Part shown: positions 18,110 to 46,851 of the stretch, one piece after another
Numbering within the stretch: the first letter of the stretch is position 1
Layout: every line of letters begins with the position of its first letter
Source: Bacilli bacterium
GTDB lineage: Bacteria > Bacillota_I > Bacilli_A > RF39 > UBA660
NCBI GenBank assembly: GCA_045627525.1
Contig: JAZQNW010000011.1
Location: forward strand, 4,549 to 68,548
DNA length: 64,000 bases
Direction: 5' to 3'
Position numbers and translations under genes: made by a program
The notes under the pieces: model-generated
What the model saw: only the letters and a program-made list of their open reading frames with translations
Databases searched by the model: none
What the model was told of the DNA's origin: nothing

Positions 18110-18152
18110 ATCTTGTAAAATGATTTTATTTATGATATATTTCTATATAAAG

Positions 18153-18360
18153 CAAGTGCGAAAGACGTAATATTAATTAATTTGTAGAGAGCTTGTGGAT
18201 GGTGAAAACAAGTATGAAATTAATATTAAGATCACTTTCAAGTTGTGATTTATGGATAAGATAAATACGGTAACGCGTTATAGTTATAAGTGTATAAGTT
18301 TTCTTATAAATTAAGGTGGTACCGCGAACTATTCGTCCTTATAGGCGAGTAGTTTTTTTT
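18153..18360 (+). promoter_or_regulatory. T-box riboswitch (Ile) with canonical terminator
   Basis: AGAGA bulge and GGTG loop, specifier ATC at 18231-18233, T-box AAGGTGGTACCGCG 18313-18326, terminator ACTATTCGTC/GGCGAGTAGT plus T-tract. Confidence 0.93.
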
Positions 18361-38792: not shown

Positions 38793-39713
38793 ATGTTAGT
38801 TAATGGCATATCTTCAAAATGCAGTGGTTTTTTTATGAGTGATGAATTAAATCCCTCTATATTAAATAATAAAAGATATAAATCTATAGTTGAAAAAATA
38901 GAATCAATTATTACTGAACAATTTATTTCTTTAGATTTAACGGATATTAGTACTTTTTCTAATTTTGATGATATTTTTAGTAAAAAAATTAAAATAGATA
39001 TGGAAGAAGACGGTAATGGTTTTAAATTTGAATTTCAAAATAAGTCAAAAGAAGATGATTCATTAATTATAAATTATAAATCTATTAGAGTTAGACTTTT
39101 GAAAAATGGAGATATAGATTTTAAAGATTTACCAGATGATAGTTTAATGGTAACTGAAAAATCTGCTGATGCTAGTATTAGTGGCAATACTATTAAGTGT
39201 TCAATGCCAATAGTTGAAAAAACTATATTTGATAAAAATGGTAAACAATTAGATTTTGAAAAAAAGGTTTTATTTGATAAAACGGAAATATTAGATGATA
39301 CTTCATCTTCATATAGAAAATTGATAAGAATTTTAAGTGAAGAATTAGATAGAATTGATAATACAAAGGATGATGTTTGTGAACATATTTATCTTTATAG
39401 AAAAGATTCTGATACTAGTTGCGTAACATTTAATGGAGAAGATGGCAATATTTTAGAGAGAAGTTTTTCAATTAATCTAAATGATGCTGTTACTTCTAAG
39501 TATTTAGCTTCAGTTTGTTCTATCAGTGGTAGAAAGTTAGATTATAAAGATTTAACAAAGTTTTTAGTTAGTTTAGATGATGCACAAATTACTAGAGTTA
39601 TAAGTAATATGATAGATGAGAAATCAACATTTGCGTTTAATAGAGATCACAATGTACCATGTTATGGAACAAGAAATAGTTTTCAAAAGCAAAAAAATTC
39701 TAAAAATAACTAA
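38793..39713 (+). CDS. Hypothetical acidic protein
   Basis: 306 aa ORF with TGTTATAAT promoter and AAGGAGG RBS; no family recognised. Confidence 0.72.
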   Translation: MLVNGISSKCSGFFMSDELNPSILNNKRYKSIVEKIESIITEQFISLDLTDISTFSNFDDIFSKKIKIDMEEDGNGFKFEFQNKSKEDDSLIINYKSIRVRLLKNGDIDFKDLPDDSLMVTEKSADASISGNTIKCSMPIVEKTIFDKNGKQLDFEKKVLFDKTEILDDTSSSYRKLIRILSEELDRIDNTKDDVCEHIYLYRKDSDTSCVTFNGEDGNILERSFSINLNDAVTSKYLASVCSISGRKLDYKDLTKFLVSLDDAQITRVISNMIDEKSTFAFNRDHNVPCYGTRNSFQKQKNSKNN

Positions 39714-39764: not shown

Positions 39765-39900
39765 AGTCGAGAGAAAAAGGAAAGAGATTTATATCCACCT
39801 GATCAGCGAATAGCGATAGGTCAAATGCCAATTAGAAATAATGCGATTAATTATTTAAAAGGTTTTTGAGTGGGTATAATGTTTATATCCGCTTTTTCTT
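39765..39900 (+). promoter_or_regulatory. Ribosomal protein L20 leader (autoregulatory RNA)
   Basis: CCACCTGATC..GATAGGTC core and GTGGGTATAA..TTATATCCGC-T-tract hairpin upstream of infC-rpmI-rplT. Confidence 0.65.
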
Positions 39901-39919
39901 ATTTATGGAGGTGTTAGGT

Positions 39920-40450
39920 ATCGCAAACAATAAAAATAACATGTTGATTAATGATCAAATTAAAGCTAGAGAGGTTCTAGTAATTGGCCCAAATGGTGAG
40001 CAAGTAGGAATTAAATCTATTCAGGATGCATTAACTTTAGCTAGTTATGCAGCATTAGATTTAGTGCTTATCAGTCCAAATGCTAACCCACCTGTTTGCA
40101 AAGTAATGGATTACAATAAATATCGTTATGAAAAGCAGAAAAAAGAAAAGGAAGCATTAAAAAGACAAAAGGCCAATATGTCTGAATTAAAGGAATATCG
40201 TTTATCACCAGTTATTGATGTGGGAGATTTCGAAACAAAACTTAGAAATGCTACTAAGTATTTAGAAAAAGGCGATAGAATTAAACTTACAATTCGTTTT
40301 AAGGGAAGACAACTTGCACATACAGAATTAGGTAAGGAAGTTCTAGAACGTTTTGCATCTCGAGTTTCAGATTATGCGGATATAGAGCAAAAGCCTAAGT
40401 TAGACGGAAAAACTATGACTATGTTATTAGTACCAAAGAAAGATAAATAA
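39920..40450 (+). CDS. infC: Translation initiation factor IF-3, non-canonical ATC start
   Basis: GGAGG 39907-39911 followed 8 nt later by in-frame ATC; INDQIKAREV, PPVCKVMDY, IRFKGRQ. Confidence 0.95.
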   Translation: MANNKNNMLINDQIKAREVLVIGPNGEQVGIKSIQDALTLASYAALDLVLISPNANPPVCKVMDYNKYRYEKQKKEKEALKRQKANMSELKEYRLSPVIDVGDFETKLRNATKYLEKGDRIKLTIRFKGRQLAHTELGKEVLERFASRVSDYADIEQKPKLDGKTMTMLLVPKKDK

Positions 40451-40465
40451 TAGGAGGAGTTAAAT

Positions 40466-40651
40466 ATGCCAAAAATTAAAACACATAAGGGAACAGCAAA
40501 AGTTTTAACAGTACGTAAAAATGATTGCAAAATTGGAAAACCAGGAAGTCGTCATAACACTGGTTCAAAATCAACATCTTTTAATAGAAGTTGTAGAAAG
40601 GGATCAAGCCTTAGTAAAGCTGATCAAAATAGATTAAAAAATATAATCTAA
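40466..40651 (+). CDS. rpmI: 50S ribosomal protein L35
   Basis: MPKIKTHKGTAK; lies between infC and rplT. Confidence 0.9.
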   Translation: MPKIKTHKGTAKVLTVRKNDCKIGKPGSRHNTGSKSTSFNRSCRKGSSLSKADQNRLKNII

Positions 40652-40670: not shown

Positions 40671-41264
40671 ATGGCAAGAGTTAAGAATGGAGCAGTTACA
40701 AAAGCTCGTCATAAAAAAGTATTAAAAGCTGCTAAAGGTTACTTTGGTAGTAAACATAGACTTTATAAGTCAGCTAAAGAACAATTAATGCATTCAGGAC
40801 AATATGCATTCAGAGATAGAAAACAAAAGAAGAGAGATTTTAGAAAATTATGGATTACAAGAATCAATGCTGCATGTCGTCAAAATGATATTAGTTATTC
40901 TAGATTTATTGAAGGTTTAAATAAAGCTGGTGTTGAAGTTAACCGTAAAATGTTATCAGAAATAGCTATCAACGATCCTAAAATGTTTAGTGAATTTGTA
41001 AAAGTAGCTAAAGATGGTAAAGCTGGAAAAATAACTAAGGCTACAGAAGTTGCTGGAAAAGAAGTTACAATAAATGCTTCAAAAACTGCAAAAGCTCCAG
41101 CAAAAAAAGCTGAAGTAAAAGAAGAAAAAAAGACAGCTACTAAAGCAGAAAAAGTTGACTATTCTAAAATGACAGTAGCTGAATTAAAAGAAGTAGCAGC
41201 TAAGAAAAAAGTTGATGTTGCTGGTATGAAAAAAGCTGAAATTATTGCAGCTTTAGAAAAATAA
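40671..41264 (+). CDS. rplT: 50S ribosomal protein L20 with C-terminal Rho_N-like extension
   Basis: [32 protein letters not shown]; ~80 aa extra tail. Confidence 0.96.
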
Positions 41265-41355
41265 ACATATTAGTGAATTTACTAATCTAGTGCCTTAATG
41301 GTGATTAGTTTTAGAAACTAATAGAAGATTAAAAAACGAAGGAGAAAATTAAATT

Positions 41356-42306
41356 ATGACAATAGTATCAATGAATTATTTATTAGAAGCTGGTGTTCAT
41401 TTTGGACATCAAAAAAGAAGATGGAATCCAAAAATGAAGGAATACATCTATACTACAAGAGATGATATTTATATTATCGATTTACAAAAAACAGTAAAAA
41501 AATTAGAAGAAGCATATGCAGCTATGAAAGAAATAGCTGAAGCAGGTGGAAAAGTTTTATTTGTAGGAACTAAGAAGCAAGCTCAAGAAGCAGCTGAAGA
41601 ATCTGCTGTTAGAACTAACATGTATTTCGTTAATGAAAGATGGTTAGGTGGAACTTTAACTAACTTTAAAACTATTCGTTCAAGAGTTAGAAGAATGGAA
41701 GAAATTGAAAACATGGAAAAAGACGGTGTTTTTGAAATGCTTCCAAAAAAAGAAGTTATTCAAATTAGAAAAGAATATGAAAAATTAAACAAAAACTTAA
41801 GAGGAATTAGAGATATGAAGAAAATGCCTCAAGCATTAGTAATCGTTGATCCTCGCAAAGAAGAAATAGCTATAAAAGAAGCTCATATATTAGGAATTCC
41901 AGTATTTGGTATAGTAGATACTAACTGTGATCCAGATGTTGTTGATTATGTAATTCCTGGTAACGATGATGCTGTACGTTCAGTTAAACTTTTAATCGGA
42001 GTTTTAACAAATGCAATTGCTGAAGTTAATAATAATGAAGTGTTAGACTTTATTACTGAAGATGATAAAGCAAAAGCTGAAAAGAAAATGGCAAAAAAAG
42101 AAGCAAAAGAAGAAAATAAAAAAGAAGAAGTTGTAGAAACTAAAAAAGAAGTTGAAGTTAAAGAAGAAAAAGTTGAGTCAAAAAAAGAAGAAAAAGATTT
42201 AGCTAGTTTAACATTAACTGAATTAAAGACTATGGCTAAAGAAGCTGGAGTTAAAGGTTATTCTGCAATGAAAAAAGCTGAAATCATTGAAGCTTTAACA
42301 AAATAA
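41356..42306 (+). CDS. rpsB: 30S ribosomal protein S2 with C-terminal Rho_N-like extension
   Basis: [35 protein letters not shown]; ~85 aa extra tail. Confidence 0.96.
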
Positions 42307-42389: not shown

Positions 42390-43277
42390 ATGTTTAGTGC
42401 AAAAGATGTAAAAGAATTAAGAGAAAAGACTGGAGCTGGTATGCTTGATTGCAAAAAAGCATTGGAAGCTACAGAAGGAAAAATGGAACAAGCTATAGAT
42501 TGGCTAAGAGAAAAAGGTATAGCAAAAGCAGCTAAGAAAGAAAGCAGAATAGCAGCTGAAGGATTATGCCAAATCGTTGTAAAAGAAAATAAAGCAGTTA
42601 TTCTTGAAGTTAATTCAGAAACTGATTTCGTTGCTAAAAATGAAGAATTTACAAATTTCGTTGATTATTTAGCAGAAGTAATATTAAATGAAGAAGTAGA
42701 AACAGTTGATGATGTTTTAGCTGTAAAAGATGGTAATGAAACAATTGGAGATAAATTAGTAGCATTAGTAGCTAAAATAGGTGAAAAAATTAGTTTTAGA
42801 CGTTTTGAAAAAATAACTAAAAATGATGATGAAATTTTTGGTACATACAAGCATATGGGTGGAAAAATCGGTACTGTTGTAGTAGTAAAAGGATCAAATG
42901 AAGAAGTTGCTAAAGATGTTGCAATGCAAGCTTGTGCAATGAATCCAACTGCATTAAATAGAGATGGTGTTCCTGCTGATATGGTTGAACATGAAAAAGA
43001 AGTTATTAAGGCAGAAATTAAAAATGATGAAAAGAATGCTGGTAAGCCAGATGAAATCATTGAAAAAATGTCTATTGGTAGATTAAATAAATTTTATAAA
43101 GAAATTTGTTTAGAAGAACAAGACTTTATTAAGGAAAATAAATTAACTGTAAAAGATTATGTAAAGAATAATGGCGGAGAAATTATTTCTATGGTTAGAA
43201 TAGCTGTTGGTGAAGGTATTGAAAAGAAAGAAGAAAACTTTGCTGATGAAGTAATGAGCCAAATTAATAATGCATAG
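42390..43277 (+). CDS. tsf: Elongation factor Ts
   Basis: VKELREKTGAGMLDCKKAL, EVNSETDFVA. Confidence 0.97.
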   Translation: MFSAKDVKELREKTGAGMLDCKKALEATEGKMEQAIDWLREKGIAKAAKKESRIAAEGLCQIVVKENKAVILEVNSETDFVAKNEEFTNFVDYLAEVILNEEVETVDDVLAVKDGNETIGDKLVALVAKIGEKISFRRFEKITKNDDEIFGTYKHMGGKIGTVVVVKGSNEEVAKDVAMQACAMNPTALNRDGVPADMVEHEKEVIKAEIKNDEKNAGKPDEIIEKMSIGRLNKFYKEICLEEQDFIKENKLTVKDYVKNNGGEIISMVRIAVGEGIEKKEENFADEVMSQINNA

Positions 43278-44402: not shown

Positions 44403-44933
44403 ATGAATAATGTTAAGAATACTTTTGACAAAGGAGTTTTTGGTGAACTTAGAGCTTTATGTAATGACAGTAAAGCTAGTGATATTATTAAAAAATGGAA
44501 AGAAGAAAAAGTACTTACAAGTTTGGAATATCAAGAATTATTAAATTATATATATGAAGATGCCAATAAAAAAGCGACTACCTTTTCAACTTTTGATTTA
44601 AATAATAAATCTAAAAATAGAGAAGTTTCAAAAATGTCAAATTTAATTATTGATAATTATCAAAGGGTTTGTGAAGGGGTAAATATAACAAGACAAAATA
44701 TGACTTATCATAATATTACTATATTGGTTGATCAAATTAGTCAATCTGATAAATATTTTAGCTGTTTTATAAATTTTTGTGCTTTATTGAAGTTAAGGTT
44801 AGATGAAAAAAGCTTTATACCTGATATTATGACTATGAATTATTGCAGAAATCAAATTGAATGTGCTAGTAAACAATATAAGTCATTTCTTAGGAATGGA
44901 AAAAGGCATCATCTAGTAAAAAAAACAGTTTAA
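44403..44933 (+). CDS. Hypothetical protein
   Basis: 176 aa ORF with GAGGGG RBS; no family recognised. Confidence 0.65.
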   Translation: MNNVKNTFDKGVFGELRALCNDSKASDIIKKWKEEKVLTSLEYQELLNYIYEDANKKATTFSTFDLNNKSKNREVSKMSNLIIDNYQRVCEGVNITRQNMTYHNITILVDQISQSDKYFSCFINFCALLKLRLDEKSFIPDIMTMNYCRNQIECASKQYKSFLRNGKRHHLVKKTV

Positions 44934-44964
44934 TATTTTTAATTTTTATGTTATAATACCGTTA

Positions 44965-45174
44965 TCGATGTTGATTAAGGAGTAGTAGTAATTGATGCTT
45001 CTAAAGAGAGCTTGTGGTTGGTGCAAACAAGTGAAGATAAATTATGAATTCGCCTTAGGAGTTCTTATTAATAGTAAGCGTAGCTCGCGTTAAGAGTTTT
45101 AAGTGTATAGTAATAACTATAAAATAAGGTGGTACCGCGAATATTCGTCCTTATATTTATAGTTATTTTTTTTT
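44965..45174 (+). promoter_or_regulatory. T-box riboswitch (Phe)
   Basis: AGAGAG/GGTG stem I motifs, specifier TTC 45049-45051, T-box AAGGTGGTACCGCG 45126-45139. Confidence 0.92.
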
Positions 45175-45186
45175 AAGGTGGTGACT

Positions 45187-45813
45187 ATGGATAAATTTAT
45201 TTTTGATTTAGATGGAACTTTATTAAATGCGGATTTTTCATTTGAAATTGATTATTTTGCTTCTGTTTTAGATAAAGGTGTTGCTAAAGAATTTGATTTA
45301 ATTAGATTTCCATTATTAACTGAATATGAGAACAGTCATTATAAATATGATATTATGGAACTCAGTGAATTTTTTTATTCAAAATCTGGAATTAATATTA
45401 CACCTTTAATGATTAAGGAATGGATTAGAAGAGGTGCTAATTGTTCTGATACTATTATTGATGGTGTAGAAGAGGTTTTAAAATATTTAAAATCTAAAAA
45501 TAAAAAAATAGTATTATTAACTAATTGGTTTAGTGAATGCCAATTATCTAGATTAAAAAGAGCTGGTATTTATGATTATTTTGATGAATTTTATTGTGGA
45601 GATAGTTGTTTAAAACCAAATTTAGATAGTTATAAATTAGCTTGTGGTAATACGCCATATGATAGATGTGTAATCATAGGTGATACATTTAAAAACGATG
45701 TTTTGGCTCCTAGTGAATTAGGAATAACTGCAATATATTTTTGTCCTAATGGTGATGGTATAGAGTTTGAAAATAAGATAGATAAATTAATTAAAATAAA
45801 GGAGATGTTTTAA
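45187..45813 (+). CDS. HAD-IA family hydrolase
   Basis: FDLDGTL, LLTN, LKP, IIGDTFKNDV motifs. Confidence 0.9.
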   Translation: MDKFIFDLDGTLLNADFSFEIDYFASVLDKGVAKEFDLIRFPLLTEYENSHYKYDIMELSEFFYSKSGINITPLMIKEWIRRGANCSDTIIDGVEEVLKYLKSKNKKIVLLTNWFSECQLSRLKRAGIYDYFDEFYCGDSCLKPNLDSYKLACGNTPYDRCVIIGDTFKNDVLAPSELGITAIYFCPNGDGIEFENKIDKLIKIKEMF

Positions 45814-46851
45814 GTGAAGTTAGAAGATGTAAAAGAATTATTAGAAAATGATTTGAAAAAGAATTATACAATTAATGAATTAAATGATTTAAAAGTAAAA
45901 TATTTAGGAAAAAAGGGATTGATTACAGAATTAAATCAAGAAATAAAAAATATTCCAAATGAGAGAAAAAAAGAATTTGGTCAAAAAGTTAATGAACTTA
46001 GAAATGACTTTAATCTTTTTTATGACTCTGCTAAAAAGAAAATGGAAGCTGATATTTTAAATGAAAAATTGAGTAAAGAAGCTATTGATATTAGTTTACC
46101 TTCTATAAAAATTAATAATGGTGCTCCTAATATTTTGGAAAAAGTAATAGAAGAGGTAGAAGAAATCTTTATGTCTATGGGCTTTGATGTTGTAGACGGG
46201 CCTGAAGTAGAAGAAGATAAATTTAATTTTGAAATGTTAAATATTCCTAAAGGTCATCCAGCTAGAGATGCACAAGATACTTTTTACATTGAAGGTGAAG
46301 AAACTTTGCTTCGTAGTCAAACTTCTCCTGTTCAAGTTAGAACAATGTTAGATGGAAATGGCGTTTCACCTATTAGAATGATTTGCCCTGGTAAGACATA
46401 TCGTCGTGATGATGATGATGCTACTCATTCACATCAGTTTATGCAAATTGAAGGATTACTTATTGATAAAGAGGTTAGCCTTTCAGATTTAAAAGGAATA
46501 ATTGATATATTAGTTAAAAAATTATTTGGTGAAAAAGTTCAAACTCGTTTTAGACCAAGTTATTATCAGTTTACAGAGCCTTCTGTTGAAATAGATATAA
46601 GCTGTTTTAATTGTCATGGAGATGGTTGCTCATTATGTAAGCATACAGGATGGATTACAATAGCTGGAGCTGGAATTGTTCATCCTAATGTTCTTAGAAT
46701 GAGTGGATATGATCCTAATATTTGGAGTGGATTTGCTTTTGGATTTGGTGCTGAAAGAGTAGCAATGTTGAAATATGATATTAATGATATTAGAGTATTT
46801 TATAATACAGATTTAAGAGAAAATAGAGTATTTGATAGGAGGGATGATTAA
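45814..46851 (+). CDS. pheS: Phenylalanine--tRNA ligase alpha subunit
   Basis: HPARDAQDTFY, LLRSQTS, ATHSHQFMQIEG, FAFGFGAER. Confidence 0.97.
   Translation: MKLEDVKELLENDLKKNYTINELNDLKVKYLGKKGLITELNQEIKNIPNERKKEFGQKVNELRNDFNLFYDSAKKKMEADILNEKLSKEAIDISLPSIKINNGAPNILEKVIEEVEEIFMSMGFDVVDGPEVEEDKFNFEMLNIPKGHPARDAQDTFYIEGEETLLRSQTSPVQVRTMLDGNGVSPIRMICPGKTYRRDDDDATHSHQFMQIEGLLIDKEVSLSDLKGIIDILVKKLFGEKVQTRFRPSYYQFTEPSVEIDISCFNCHGDGCSLCKHTGWITIAGAGIVHPNVLRMSGYDPNIWSGFAFGFGAERVAMLKYDINDIRVFYNTDLRENRVFDRRDD

What the first reader, a model, noticed from the sequence alone, without database searches (positions are those of the whole stretch)
41025..42306. Two ribosomal proteins (bL20 and uS2) carry the same tethered Rho_N/HeH-like domain
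Seen: L20 ends [35 protein letters not shown] and S2 ends [36 protein letters not shown], each after a 40-50 aa Lys/Glu/Ala linker. The last 39 nt match at 35 positions (41226-41264 vs 42268-42306), and the two genes are adjacent. Known: this pattern resembles the Rho N-terminal helix-extension-helix domain, a nucleic-acid/protein-binding module not part of canonical L20 or S2; S2 lies near the mRNA channel. Inference: a ribosome decorated on both subunits with flexible HeH arms, possibly for mRNA capture, subunit bridging or hibernation, RNA polymerase or nuclease recruitment, or nucleoid tethering. This is the strongest candidate for an undescribed system here.
Basis: partly seen in the sequence, partly recalled or inferred. 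Interest (0 to 1): 0.82.

Follow-up and report, generated by a model that had tools for sequence, protein, structure and literature searches.

The report
Rho-N/SAP tails on ribosomal L20, S2
In this uncultured gut bacterium, ribosomal proteins L20 and S2 (and the membrane protease FtsH elsewhere in the genome) each end in the same small two-helix nucleic-acid-binding-type domain on a floppy linker; the feature is real, old, lineage-wide and listed in databases, but what the tail binds has never been tested.

Summary
rplT (40671-41264) and rpsB (41356-42306) are adjacent. Each encodes a normal core, a 45-52 aa low-complexity linker and a 36-aa C-terminal helix-extended-helix (HeH) domain of the Rho_N/SAP type. 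The tail alone folds with pLDDT 94, and its best structural matches are the Rho N-terminal domain and SAP domains.

The 35/39 nt match is real. Shared residues and codon bias mostly explain it (P about 0.05), so it does not show a recent duplication here.

New here:
- FtsH of the same genome carries a third copy.
- Half of 150 sampled genomes of the class (57 of 114 genera) carry the tail, on L20 in at least 8 families and on S2 in at least 6.
- It also occurs on bS1 and on several membrane-anchored proteins.
- In relatives the L20 and S2 tails overwrite each other by gene conversion, in sharply bounded tracts.
- In five relatives the L20 HeH is replaced by a histone-H1-like basic tail.
- Rho is absent from the family. 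bS1 coexists with the S2 tail in other families. Long HPF is present.

Best reading (about 0.55): a generic nucleic-acid-binding module on a leash, RNA favoured, shared by ribosomes and membrane machines. The architecture is in Pfam and NCBIfam, I found no functional study, and no solved ribosome carries it. New variant of a known kind; interest 0.55.

The parts
40671..41015 (+). rplT, canonical bL20 core (aa 1-115)
   Evidence: Pfam Ribosomal_L20 160.7 bits at residues 3-108. TIGR01032 165.5 bits at 1-114. PDB L20 chains align to residues 1-116 only.
41016..41153 (+). bL20 linker (aa 116-161), Lys/Ala/Thr-rich and basic, low complexity
   Evidence: Read directly from the sequence. Length and sequence vary among relatives.
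41154..41264 (+). bL20 C-terminal HeH domain (aa 162-197) plus stop; short-loop '[12 protein letters not shown]' type
   Evidence: SAP 26.7 bits (over cut-off) and Rho_N 20.8 bits. The own-genome tail HMM gives 63.3 bits. Conserved in the genus and family.
41265..41355 (+). 91-nt rplT-rpsB spacer with the rpsB ribosome-binding site (GAAGGAG)
   Evidence: Sequence. No Rfam family matches here.
41356..42039 (+). rpsB, canonical uS2 core (aa 1-228)
   Evidence: Pfam Ribosomal_S2 332.9 bits at 9-223. TIGR01011 340.7 bits. AF2 pLDDT is about 90.
42040..42195 (+). uS2 linker (aa 229-280), Lys/Glu-rich; the first half is predicted as a low-confidence long helix and the rest is disordered
   Evidence: AF2 gives pLDDT below 50 for 251-279 and a helix at 235-263 with falling confidence. 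The linker is full of insertions and deletions in the alignment of 28 S2 homologues.
42196..42306 (+). uS2 C-terminal HeH domain (aa 281-316) plus stop; long-loop 'G-Y-S-x-MKKAE' type
   Evidence: Rho_N 39.8 bits, over the cut-off. AF2 of the tail alone gives pLDDT 94.4 with helices 7-17 and 27-35. Foldseek's best match is the Rho N-terminal domain 1a8v_B, TM 0.82, rmsd 0.8 A. Many columns are invariant.
39866..40651 (+). Upstream genes of the operon: infC (IF3; true start uncertain) and rpmI (bL35, 40466-40651)
   Evidence: Pfam IF3_N, IF3_C and Ribosomal_L35p.
42390..43277 (+). tsf (EF-Ts), downstream of rpsB
   Evidence: Pfam EF_TS 234.5 bits.

Best explanation
The region encodes the normal ribosomal proteins bL20 (50S) and uS2 (30S). 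Each is extended by a disordered, length-variable linker that ends in a 36-residue Rho_N/SAP-type helix-extended-helix (HeH) domain. The FtsH protease of the same genome, on another contig, ends in a third copy.

I read the HeH as a low-specificity nucleic-acid-binding module on a leash. Single-stranded RNA (mRNA or rRNA) is the favoured ligand and AT-rich DNA is possible. On this reading the tail raises the local concentration of that polymer at the ribosome surface. Because membrane proteins carry the same tag, it would also keep ribosomes and membrane machines such as FtsH on the same polymer.

Shown here:
- The fold.
- Purifying selection on the domain but not on the linker.
- The class-wide distribution.
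- The range of carrier proteins.
- Interchangeability of the L20 and S2 tails through gene conversion in relatives.
- Replacement of the L20 HeH by a polycationic, histone-H1-like tail in some relatives.

Inferred only: the ligand and the cellular consequence.
For: Fold:
- Pfam Rho_N or SAP scores over their cut-offs.
- AF2 of the tail alone gives pLDDT 94.4 with two helices.
- The best Foldseek matches are the Rho N-terminal domain, the FAN1, Tho1 and Hcc-1 SAP domains, and the C-terminal SAP-like domains of CDNF/MANF.
- A sequence profile of the tail hits the Ku70 SAP domain (3.7e-10) and Rho (7e-8) in the PDB.

Tether:
- S2 residues 251-279 have pLDDT below 50, while the tail has about 80-84.
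- The linker is riddled with insertions and deletions, and the tail has many invariant columns.

Conservation:
- 37 of 41 relatives match. Genus and family genomes nearly always have three hits, in frames of about 200, 320 and 660 aa.
- 75 of 150 genomes of the class, in 57 of 114 genera, match.
- I checked carriers by sequence in many families.

Common ligand rather than carrier-specific docking:
- Own-genome S2 and L20 tail identity is bimodal, 43-49% or 75-97% (permutation P < 1e-4).
- In L019 the two tails share 104 of 108 nt, and identity falls to 14/36 just upstream.
- S2 genes carrying the L20-type short loop show transfer from L20 to S2.

Nucleic-acid ligand:
- Five relatives keep the S2 HeH but have an L20 tail of KKTTTKK/AKKAAPKK type instead of a HeH.
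- The conserved exposed residues are lysines or arginines: K/R11, K15, K26 and K27.
- The isolated C-terminal 40-aa Rho-N motif of Arabidopsis RHON1 binds single-stranded RNA, including 16S and 23S fragments, in gel shifts (PMC3458557).

Other carriers are bS1 and membrane-anchored proteins.
Against: - No binding data exist for any of these tails.
- HeH/SAP-like folds can also bind proteins. CDNF's SAP-like domain is solved in complex with the BiP ATPase domain, and that structure is among the fold matches. From general knowledge, LEM domains bind BAF.
- In Rho itself the OB fold, not the N-terminal helices, makes the main RNA contacts (general knowledge).
- Foldseek E-values are not significant, because 36 residues are too few.
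- Net charge of the domain is only about +1 to +2.
- The S2 and FtsH linkers are neutral or acidic, which does not help polyanion binding.
- My evidence cannot separate RNA from DNA. A 26% G+C genome would suit the AT-rich DNA preference that SAP domains are known for.
Confidence: 0.55

Rival explanations
1. The tail is specifically a double-stranded-DNA (nucleoid) tether. On this reading the HeH tails bind the AT-rich chromosome as eukaryotic SAP and HeH domains do. They would hold ribosomes, FtsH and other membrane proteins at the nucleoid surface, a bacterial counterpart of the HeH/LEM inner-nuclear-membrane tethers.
For: - The L20 tail passes the SAP cut-off.
- The tail profile hits the Ku70 SAP domain best in the PDB.
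- The FAN1 and Tho1 SAP domains, which bind DNA, are among the fold matches.
- The genome has 26% G+C.
- Several carriers are integral or peripheral membrane proteins with cytoplasmic HeH tails.
- H1-like tails replace the L20 HeH in five relatives.
Against: - Most tails score higher against Rho_N than against SAP.
- The only isolated C-terminal Rho-N module that has been tested binds single-stranded RNA.
- Translating ribosomes are generally excluded from the nucleoid (general knowledge).
- Nothing was tested directly.
Confidence: 0.2
2. The tail is a protein-protein docking tag. On this reading the HeH recruits one common partner, such as an RNA polymerase or NusA surface, an RNase, a chaperone or an adaptor, to ribosomes and to FtsH.
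For: - SAP-like domains that bind proteins are among the fold matches, including the CDNF C-terminal domain solved with the BiP ATPase domain.
- From general knowledge, the Rho N-terminal domain contacts RNA polymerase and NusA in pre-termination complexes.
- The same tag on unrelated machines fits an address label.
Against: - I identified no candidate partner.
- The L20 HeH can be replaced by a low-complexity polycationic tail, which is hard to reconcile with a specific protein interface.
- The conserved exposed residues are mainly lysines.
Confidence: 0.15
3. The tail is a ribosome-pairing, hibernation or subunit-bridging device, through HeH-HeH or HeH-ribosome contacts between particles.
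For: There is one tail on each subunit. From general knowledge, uS2 lies near the 30S-30S contact of Firmicute 100S particles.
Against: - A long HPF (183-aa frame, 90.7 bits) is present in this genome and in 37 of the 41 genomes searched (this genome and 40 relatives), so the canonical dimerising factor is not missing.
- FtsH and other membrane proteins carry the same tail.
- Some relatives lack the L20 HeH but keep the S2 one.
Confidence: 0.04
4. The tail is a nearly neutral passenger. On this reading it is a promiscuous mobile module that spreads by gene conversion and recombination and persists because it does no harm, or only helps solubility.
For: - The profile finds 11,720 representative proteins with very diverse contexts.
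- Gene conversion occurs between the neighbouring genes.
- The L20 HeH has been lost sporadically.
Against: - The domain sequence is under strong purifying selection while the adjoining linker drifts freely.
- In 1-Mb reduced genomes it is retained on three proteins across a family, and on L20 and S2 across many families.
Confidence: 0.06

Closest known systems
N-terminal helical subdomain of transcription termination factor Rho (Pfam Rho_N, PF07498; e.g. PDB 1a8v, 7oqh, 8hsj)
   Same: Same 36-residue HeH fold and sequence signature (L..L...EL...A...G..G.S.M.K.ELI.AL). The Pfam score is over the cut-off for the S2 and FtsH tails. It is the best Foldseek match (TM 0.82, rmsd 0.8 A), and the profile hits Rho chains in the PDB.
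   Different: The tail is C-terminal and stands alone on a disordered linker, not N-terminal and packed against an OB fold and a RecA ATPase. Rho itself is absent from this genome and its whole family, so the tails are not fragments of a resident rho gene.
Arabidopsis RHON1, a chloroplast RNase E partner with a C-terminal Rho-N motif (PMC3458557)
   Same: A Rho-N HeH motif moved to the extreme C-terminus, which in RHON1 follows a stretch of highly negatively charged residues. The isolated 40-aa motif binds single-stranded RNA, including 16S and 23S rRNA fragments. This is the closest tested functional analogue.
   Different: It belongs to a eukaryotic organelle and its carrier is not a ribosomal protein. 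I did not compare the sequences directly, and homology beyond the shared Pfam family was not tested.
Eukaryotic SAP and HeH/LEM domains (PF02037, PF12949; Ku70, Tho1, FAN1, Hcc-1)
   Same: Same fold. The L20 tail passes the SAP cut-off. In the census, 94 of 140 profile hits also match SAP and 30 match HeH/LEM. There are fold matches. HeH tails on membrane proteins of sister families recall the inner-nuclear-membrane HeH proteins.
   Different: These are bacterial, sit on ribosomal proteins and a protease, and score higher against Rho_N than against SAP in most cases. DNA binding was not shown.
NCBIfam NF011109 (PRK14537), '50S ribosomal protein L20/unknown domain fusion protein'
   Same: It models an L20 core plus linker plus a C-terminal domain. 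All three tails of this genome align to its positions 182-225, and the full L20 scores 172.3 bits. The L20 fusion is therefore already catalogued.
   Different: The score is below the curated cut-off of 187, so this L20 is a near miss rather than a called member. The model says nothing about S2, FtsH or function.
NCBIfam NF051450 and NF051451, 'sunset domain variants' of L20 and of S2
   Same: The same two ribosomal proteins are curated as carrying one shared extra C-terminal domain. This is a parallel case of L20 and S2 being decorated alike.
   Different: The proteins here match only the core and linker part of those models (positions 1-162 of 219 and 1-271 of 382) and score far below the cut-offs. 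None of the 150 genomes of the class reaches E <= 1e-100, and the only control genome that rings is Corynebacterium glutamicum. It is therefore a different tail, probably from another phylum. I found no literature on it.

Membership tests
Pfam Rho_N (PF07498) | HMM score at or above the gathering cut-off (24.9 bits) | tested here: met
   S2 tail 39.8 bits and 42.5 bits in the genome scan; FtsH tail 34.9 bits. The L20 tail alone falls short at 20.8-23.7 bits.
Pfam Rho_N (PF07498) | Helix-extended-helix fold | tested here: met
   AF2 pLDDT 94.4 with helices 7-17 and 27-35. Rho N-terminal domain 1a8v_B matches at TM 0.82, rmsd 0.8 A, probability 0.96. The E-values are not significant because the query has only 36 aa.
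Transcription termination factor Rho (TIGR00767) | Rho_N followed by the OB-fold RNA-binding domain and the RecA-type ATPase | tested here: not met
   No match to TIGR00767 in this genome or in any of the 25 other genomes of its family and order that were sampled. The tails are C-terminal on L20, S2 and FtsH.
Pfam SAP (PF02037) | HMM score at or above the gathering cut-off (23.9 bits) | tested here: inconclusive
   The L20 tail scores 26.7 bits and passes. SAP is not reported for the S2 tail at E <= 0.1. In the census, 94 of 140 related proteins also match SAP.
bL20 (TIGR01032) and uS2 (TIGR01011) | Equivalog HMM over its cut-off across the full core | tested here: met
   165.5 bits against a cut-off of 65.65, and 340.7 bits against 76.3.
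NCBIfam NF011109, L20/unknown domain fusion protein | Whole-protein score at or above 187 bits | tested here: not met
   172.3 bits, a near miss. The tail aligns to model positions 182-225.
NCBIfam NF051450 / NF051451, sunset domain variants | Whole-protein score over the cut-off (375 and 710 bits), including the C-terminal 'sunset' part | tested here: not met
   138.7 and 296.8 bits. The alignments stop at model positions 162 of 219 and 271 of 382. No genome of the class reaches E <= 1e-100.
RHON1-like C-terminal Rho-N RNA-binding module | The isolated motif binds single-stranded RNA | not testable with these tools
   This needs gel shifts or anisotropy with recombinant tails. Only the plant precedent is available.

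The most novel reading that the evidence does not exclude
The HeH tail may be a shared address tag. The carriers are both ribosomal subunits (and bS1 in some lineages), the FtsH protease, a conserved multi-pass membrane protein and small membrane-anchored proteins. All would be leashed to one common polymer, either mRNA or the AT-rich nucleoid. That would create membrane-proximal zones of translation and quality control in these reduced Bacilli, which in the window's own family also lack Rho and bS1. It would be a bacterial counterpart, and a possible evolutionary source, of the eukaryotic HeH/LEM membrane-chromatin tethers.
Probability: 0.15. Interest if true: 0.8.

Novelty: new variant of a known kind. 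Interest (0 to 1): 0.55.

Why it matters
Ribosomal proteins seldom gain folded extra domains. Here one protein of each subunit carries the same one, and so does the membrane protease that removes failed membrane proteins. The trait is held across a large group of uncultured gut Bacilli with 1-Mb genomes. Nature has already swapped the tails between L20 and S2, and has replaced the L20 tail with a polycationic one. Both point to a common, probably nucleic-acid, ligand. If so, this would be a simple and so far undescribed way of organising translation in space, by leashing ribosomes and membrane machines to the same RNA or DNA. It is directly testable with a 36-residue peptide. It also bears on the bacterial origin of the SAP/HeH/LEM modules.

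Tried and rejected
1. Recent duplication or gene conversion in this window. The 35/39 nt match is only marginally above the codon-bias expectation, and the two tails here are of different loop types.

2. S2 tail as a substitute for the missing bS1. bS1 (TIGR00717) is absent from families f1 and f7. It is present in f13, f16, f19 and f20, whose S2 proteins I confirmed by sequence to carry the tail. In G084 bS1 itself carries the tail.

3. Tail as a substitute for a hibernation factor. Long HPF is present.

4. Tails as remnants of, or compensation for, Rho. Rho is absent from the family, but G027 has both Rho and a tailed L20, so there is no exclusive relation.

5. 'Sunset domain' identity. Not met, and I found no literature on it.

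6. Census of single-copy carriers with the exhaustive profile search. The best 150 of 11,720 hits are multi-copy Rho_N/SAP arrays, which say little about carriers. I used genome scans instead.

7. Literature searches for HeH or Rho_N on ribosomal proteins found no study.

I could not check transcription or read support, and the tools here hold no proteomic data to show whether the tail is kept on the mature proteins.

9. The 654-aa frame hit in G056 (family f3) was not confirmed as FtsH.
Full report
WHAT IS THERE

The window carries infC, rpmI, rplT, rpsB and tsf on the + strand.

rplT (40671-41264) encodes 197 aa:
- a full bL20 core (Pfam 3-108; TIGR01032 1-114);
- a basic Lys/Ala/Thr-rich stretch of about 46 aa;
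- a 36-aa end that passes the Pfam SAP cut-off (26.7 bits) and nearly passes Rho_N (20.8 bits).

rpsB (41356-42306) encodes 316 aa:
- a full uS2 core (Pfam 9-223; TIGR01011);
- a Lys/Glu-rich stretch of about 52 aa;
- a 36-aa end that passes Rho_N (39.8 bits).

The two ends align at 17/36 residues (E = 1e-6).

IS THE DNA MATCH MEANINGFUL?

Over all 36 codons the two tails are 65% identical in DNA. The L20 tail has a loop one residue shorter. With this genome's codon usage, the 10 shared residues of the last 12 codons should give 6.2 identical codons and give 9 (P = 0.047). For the whole tail the count is 13 of 17 against 10.35 expected (P = 0.12). In this genome, shared residues and codon bias explain most of the nucleotide match. 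It is not evidence for a recent copy.

FOLD

AlphaFold2 on an alignment of 39 tails gives pLDDT 94.4 with helices at 7-17 and 27-35. Foldseek against the PDB puts the Rho N-terminal domain first (1a8v_B, TM 0.82, rmsd 0.8 A, probability 0.96). The SAP domains of FAN1, Tho1 and Hcc-1 and the SAP-like domains of CDNF/MANF follow. The E-values are not significant, because 36 residues are too few. A sequence profile of the tail hits the Ku70 SAP domain and Rho chains in the PDB.

In the full-length S2 model the core has pLDDT about 90. Residues 251-279 fall below 50, and the tail recovers to about 80-84. In an alignment of 28 S2 homologues the linker is full of insertions and deletions, while the tail has many invariant columns. 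This is a folded HeH domain on a flexible leash.

A THIRD COPY, AND NO RHO

A scan of the 1.15-Mb, 26% G+C genome found exactly three copies. I used both PF07498 and a tail HMM of my own. The copies are on S2, on L20 and on the C-terminus of FtsH (contig C1:251562-253550, minus strand; TIGR01241 824 bits).

Rho is absent from this genome and from all sampled members of its family and order.

WHO HAS IT

Contig titles place the organism among uncultured gut Bacilli. Close relatives are labelled 'uncultured Tenericutes bacterium', Clostridium sp. CAG:1193, Acholeplasma sp. CAG:878, Candidatus Coprosoma and Candidatus Fimihabitans. I take this to be the RF39 group, as earlier notes of this scan also say; the titles themselves do not name it.

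- More than 100 protein clusters of S2 already carry the precomputed Pfam pair PF07498+PF00318.
- 329 proteins match the FtsH tail, and the best 120 listed are all FtsH.
- In 40 relatives, 37 of 41 genomes match. Genus and family genomes almost always have three hits, in frames of about 200, 320 and 660 aa.
- In an even sample of the class, 75 of 150 genomes (57 of 114 genera) match.
- By frame size, L20-sized carriers occur in 13 families and S2-sized ones in 7-9. FtsH-sized ones occur only in f1 and f7, with one unconfirmed case in f3.

I confirmed carriers by sequence:
- L20+HeH in f4, f5, f6, f9, f11, f14 and f24.
- S2+HeH in f13, f16, f17 (a 0.6-Mb genome that reads TGA as a sense codon), f19 and f20.

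The L20 fusion is the most widespread, the S2 fusion is also old, and the FtsH fusion belongs to the window's own family and its neighbour. No solved ribosome contains a tailed L20 or S2.

OTHER CARRIERS IN THE CLASS

- bS1 (G084).
- A conserved multi-pass membrane protein (L089, L095-L098).
- Small proteins with an N-terminal 'MSFWSKLFGKKKK'-type segment, an acidic linker and a HeH (L088, L100, L101). The N-terminal segment looks like an amphipathic membrane anchor, which is my reading and was not tested.
- A membrane protein of 565 aa (L091) that I take to be a signalling protein with an EAL-like domain. This reading comes from the sequence alone and was not checked against Pfam.
- A further membrane protein with a coiled coil (L114).

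Carriers therefore fall into two groups, ribosomal proteins and membrane-anchored proteins.

Across all public proteins the tail profile finds 11,720 cluster representatives. The top hits are multi-copy Rho_N/SAP/HeH arrays. The module is promiscuous.

NATURAL EXPERIMENTS

In 26 genomes where rplT and rpsB are adjacent, the identity between a genome's own S2 and L20 tails is bimodal.
- It is 43-49% in this window and its closest relatives, which have two distinct types. One is a long-loop 'GYSxMKKAE' type, which is also the type seen on L20 in other families. The other is a derived short-loop '[12 protein letters not shown]' type.
- It is 75-97% in the other genomes (permutation P < 1e-4).

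In L019 the two tails share 104 of 108 nt, and identity drops to background immediately upstream. S2 genes carrying the short-loop L20 type (L016, L021, L023, L025, L026, L028, L029) show transfer from L20 to S2.

So the tails are functionally interchangeable between a 50S and a 30S protein. That argues for a common ligand and against docking to a carrier-specific site.

In five relatives (L007, L018, L020, L024, L027), L20 has no HeH. It ends instead in a KKTTTKK/AKKAAPKK-type polycationic tail like that of histone H1, while S2 keeps its HeH. That points to a polyanionic, nucleic-acid ligand.

HYPOTHESES TESTED

- S2 tail as a replacement for bS1: rejected. bS1 is absent from f1 and f7, but it coexists with tailed S2 in f13, f16, f19 and f20, and sometimes carries the tail itself.
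- Hibernation substitute: weakened, because long HPF is present.
- Rho remnant or compensation: no exclusive relation.

MECHANISM

The best-supported reading is a low-specificity nucleic-acid-binding module on a leash. The conserved exposed residues are lysines or arginines (K/R11, K15, K26, K27).

The only isolated C-terminal Rho-N motif tested so far is the last 40 aa of Arabidopsis RHON1. It binds single-stranded RNA, including 16S and 23S fragments (PMC3458557). I therefore favour RNA. AT-rich DNA binding, as in SAP domains, is the main rival, and a protein partner cannot be excluded.

From general knowledge, not tested here:
- uS2 sits on the solvent side of the 30S subunit between head and body, where bS1 and NusA dock.
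- The globular part of bL20 sits on the 50S solvent surface next to bL21.
- Leashes of 45 aa or more could sweep many nanometres around these points.

COMPARISON WITH WHAT IS KNOWN, AND NOVELTY

The domain family is known. The fusions are visible in Pfam annotation and, for L20, in NCBIfam NF011109. This L20 scores 172.3 bits against that model, just under its cut-off of 187.

NCBIfam also holds 'sunset domain variant' models of the same two proteins. Those describe a different tail, evidently from another phylum.

I found no paper on HeH-tailed ribosomal proteins. Earlier notes of this scan on sister genomes report the same tails on L20, S2 and FtsH, gene conversion between them, and the H1-like swap. 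I re-derived each of these here.

VERDICT

This is a real, conserved, catalogued but functionally unstudied feature. It is a new variant of a known kind. Interest is 0.55.

LIMITS

- There are no binding, expression or proteomic data.
- Family counts by frame size are proxies, checked only in part.

Noticed in passing
genome contig C1:251562-253550 (minus strand), outside the window: FtsH (stop-to-stop frame 663 aa; called protein 655 aa) ends in the same 36-aa HeH tail (NLESMSVTKLKELAKEKGVKNYSKMSKAELLKELDV). In total 329 proteins match this tail, and the best 120 listed are all FtsH.
   Followed up: yes
L007, L018, L020, L024, L027 (rplT just upstream of rpsB): In five relatives L20 lacks the HeH. 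It ends instead in a Lys/Ala/Thr-rich tail like that of histone H1 (KKTTTKK, AKKAAPKK), while S2 keeps its HeH.
   Followed up: partly
L019, L016, L028, L008, L023 and others (3' ends of rplT and rpsB): Sharply bounded gene-conversion tracts cover exactly the 36 tail codons of the two neighbouring genes (for example 104 of 108 nt in L019). S2 genes with the short-loop L20-type tail prove transfer from L20 to S2. Transfer in the other direction cannot be told apart from retention of the ancestral long-loop type.
   Followed up: yes
L089, L095-L098; L088, L100, L101; L090; L091 (other families of the class): The same HeH tail sits on a conserved multi-pass membrane protein, on bS1, on a 565-aa membrane protein that looks like an EAL-type signalling protein (not checked against Pfam), and on small proteins with an 'MSFWSKLFGKKKK'-type N-terminus and an acidic linker.
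   Followed up: partly
whole genome and family f1: Rho and multi-domain bS1 are absent from the whole family. The Rho search also gave none of the weak hits seen in other families, which I take to be F-type ATPase subunits, so the family may lack an F-ATPase.
   Followed up: partly
NCBIfam NF051450 / NF051451: NCBI curates 'sunset domain variants' of exactly the same two proteins, L20 and S2. These are not found in this class. Among the control genomes only Corynebacterium glutamicum rings, and I found no literature. It looks like a parallel case of L20 and S2 sharing an added C-terminal domain.
   Followed up: partly
window 44962-45155 and 18147-18343 (+): Two T-box leaders (127.7 and 97.6 bits). 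The first lies upstream of the 45178-45813 ORF and the phenylalanyl-tRNA-synthetase-like ORF at 45814.
   Followed up: no
window 38793-39713 (+) and 44403-44933 (+): Two ORFs of 306 and 176 aa flank the translation genes and were not examined. The first lies between the glycyl-tRNA-synthetase-like gene and infC.
   Followed up: no
G040 (locus L113): A 0.6-Mb genome of the same class that reads TGA as a sense codon also has an S2 with a long Lys/Glu/Pro linker and the HeH tail. The trait therefore reaches Mycoplasma-like lineages.
   Followed up: partly
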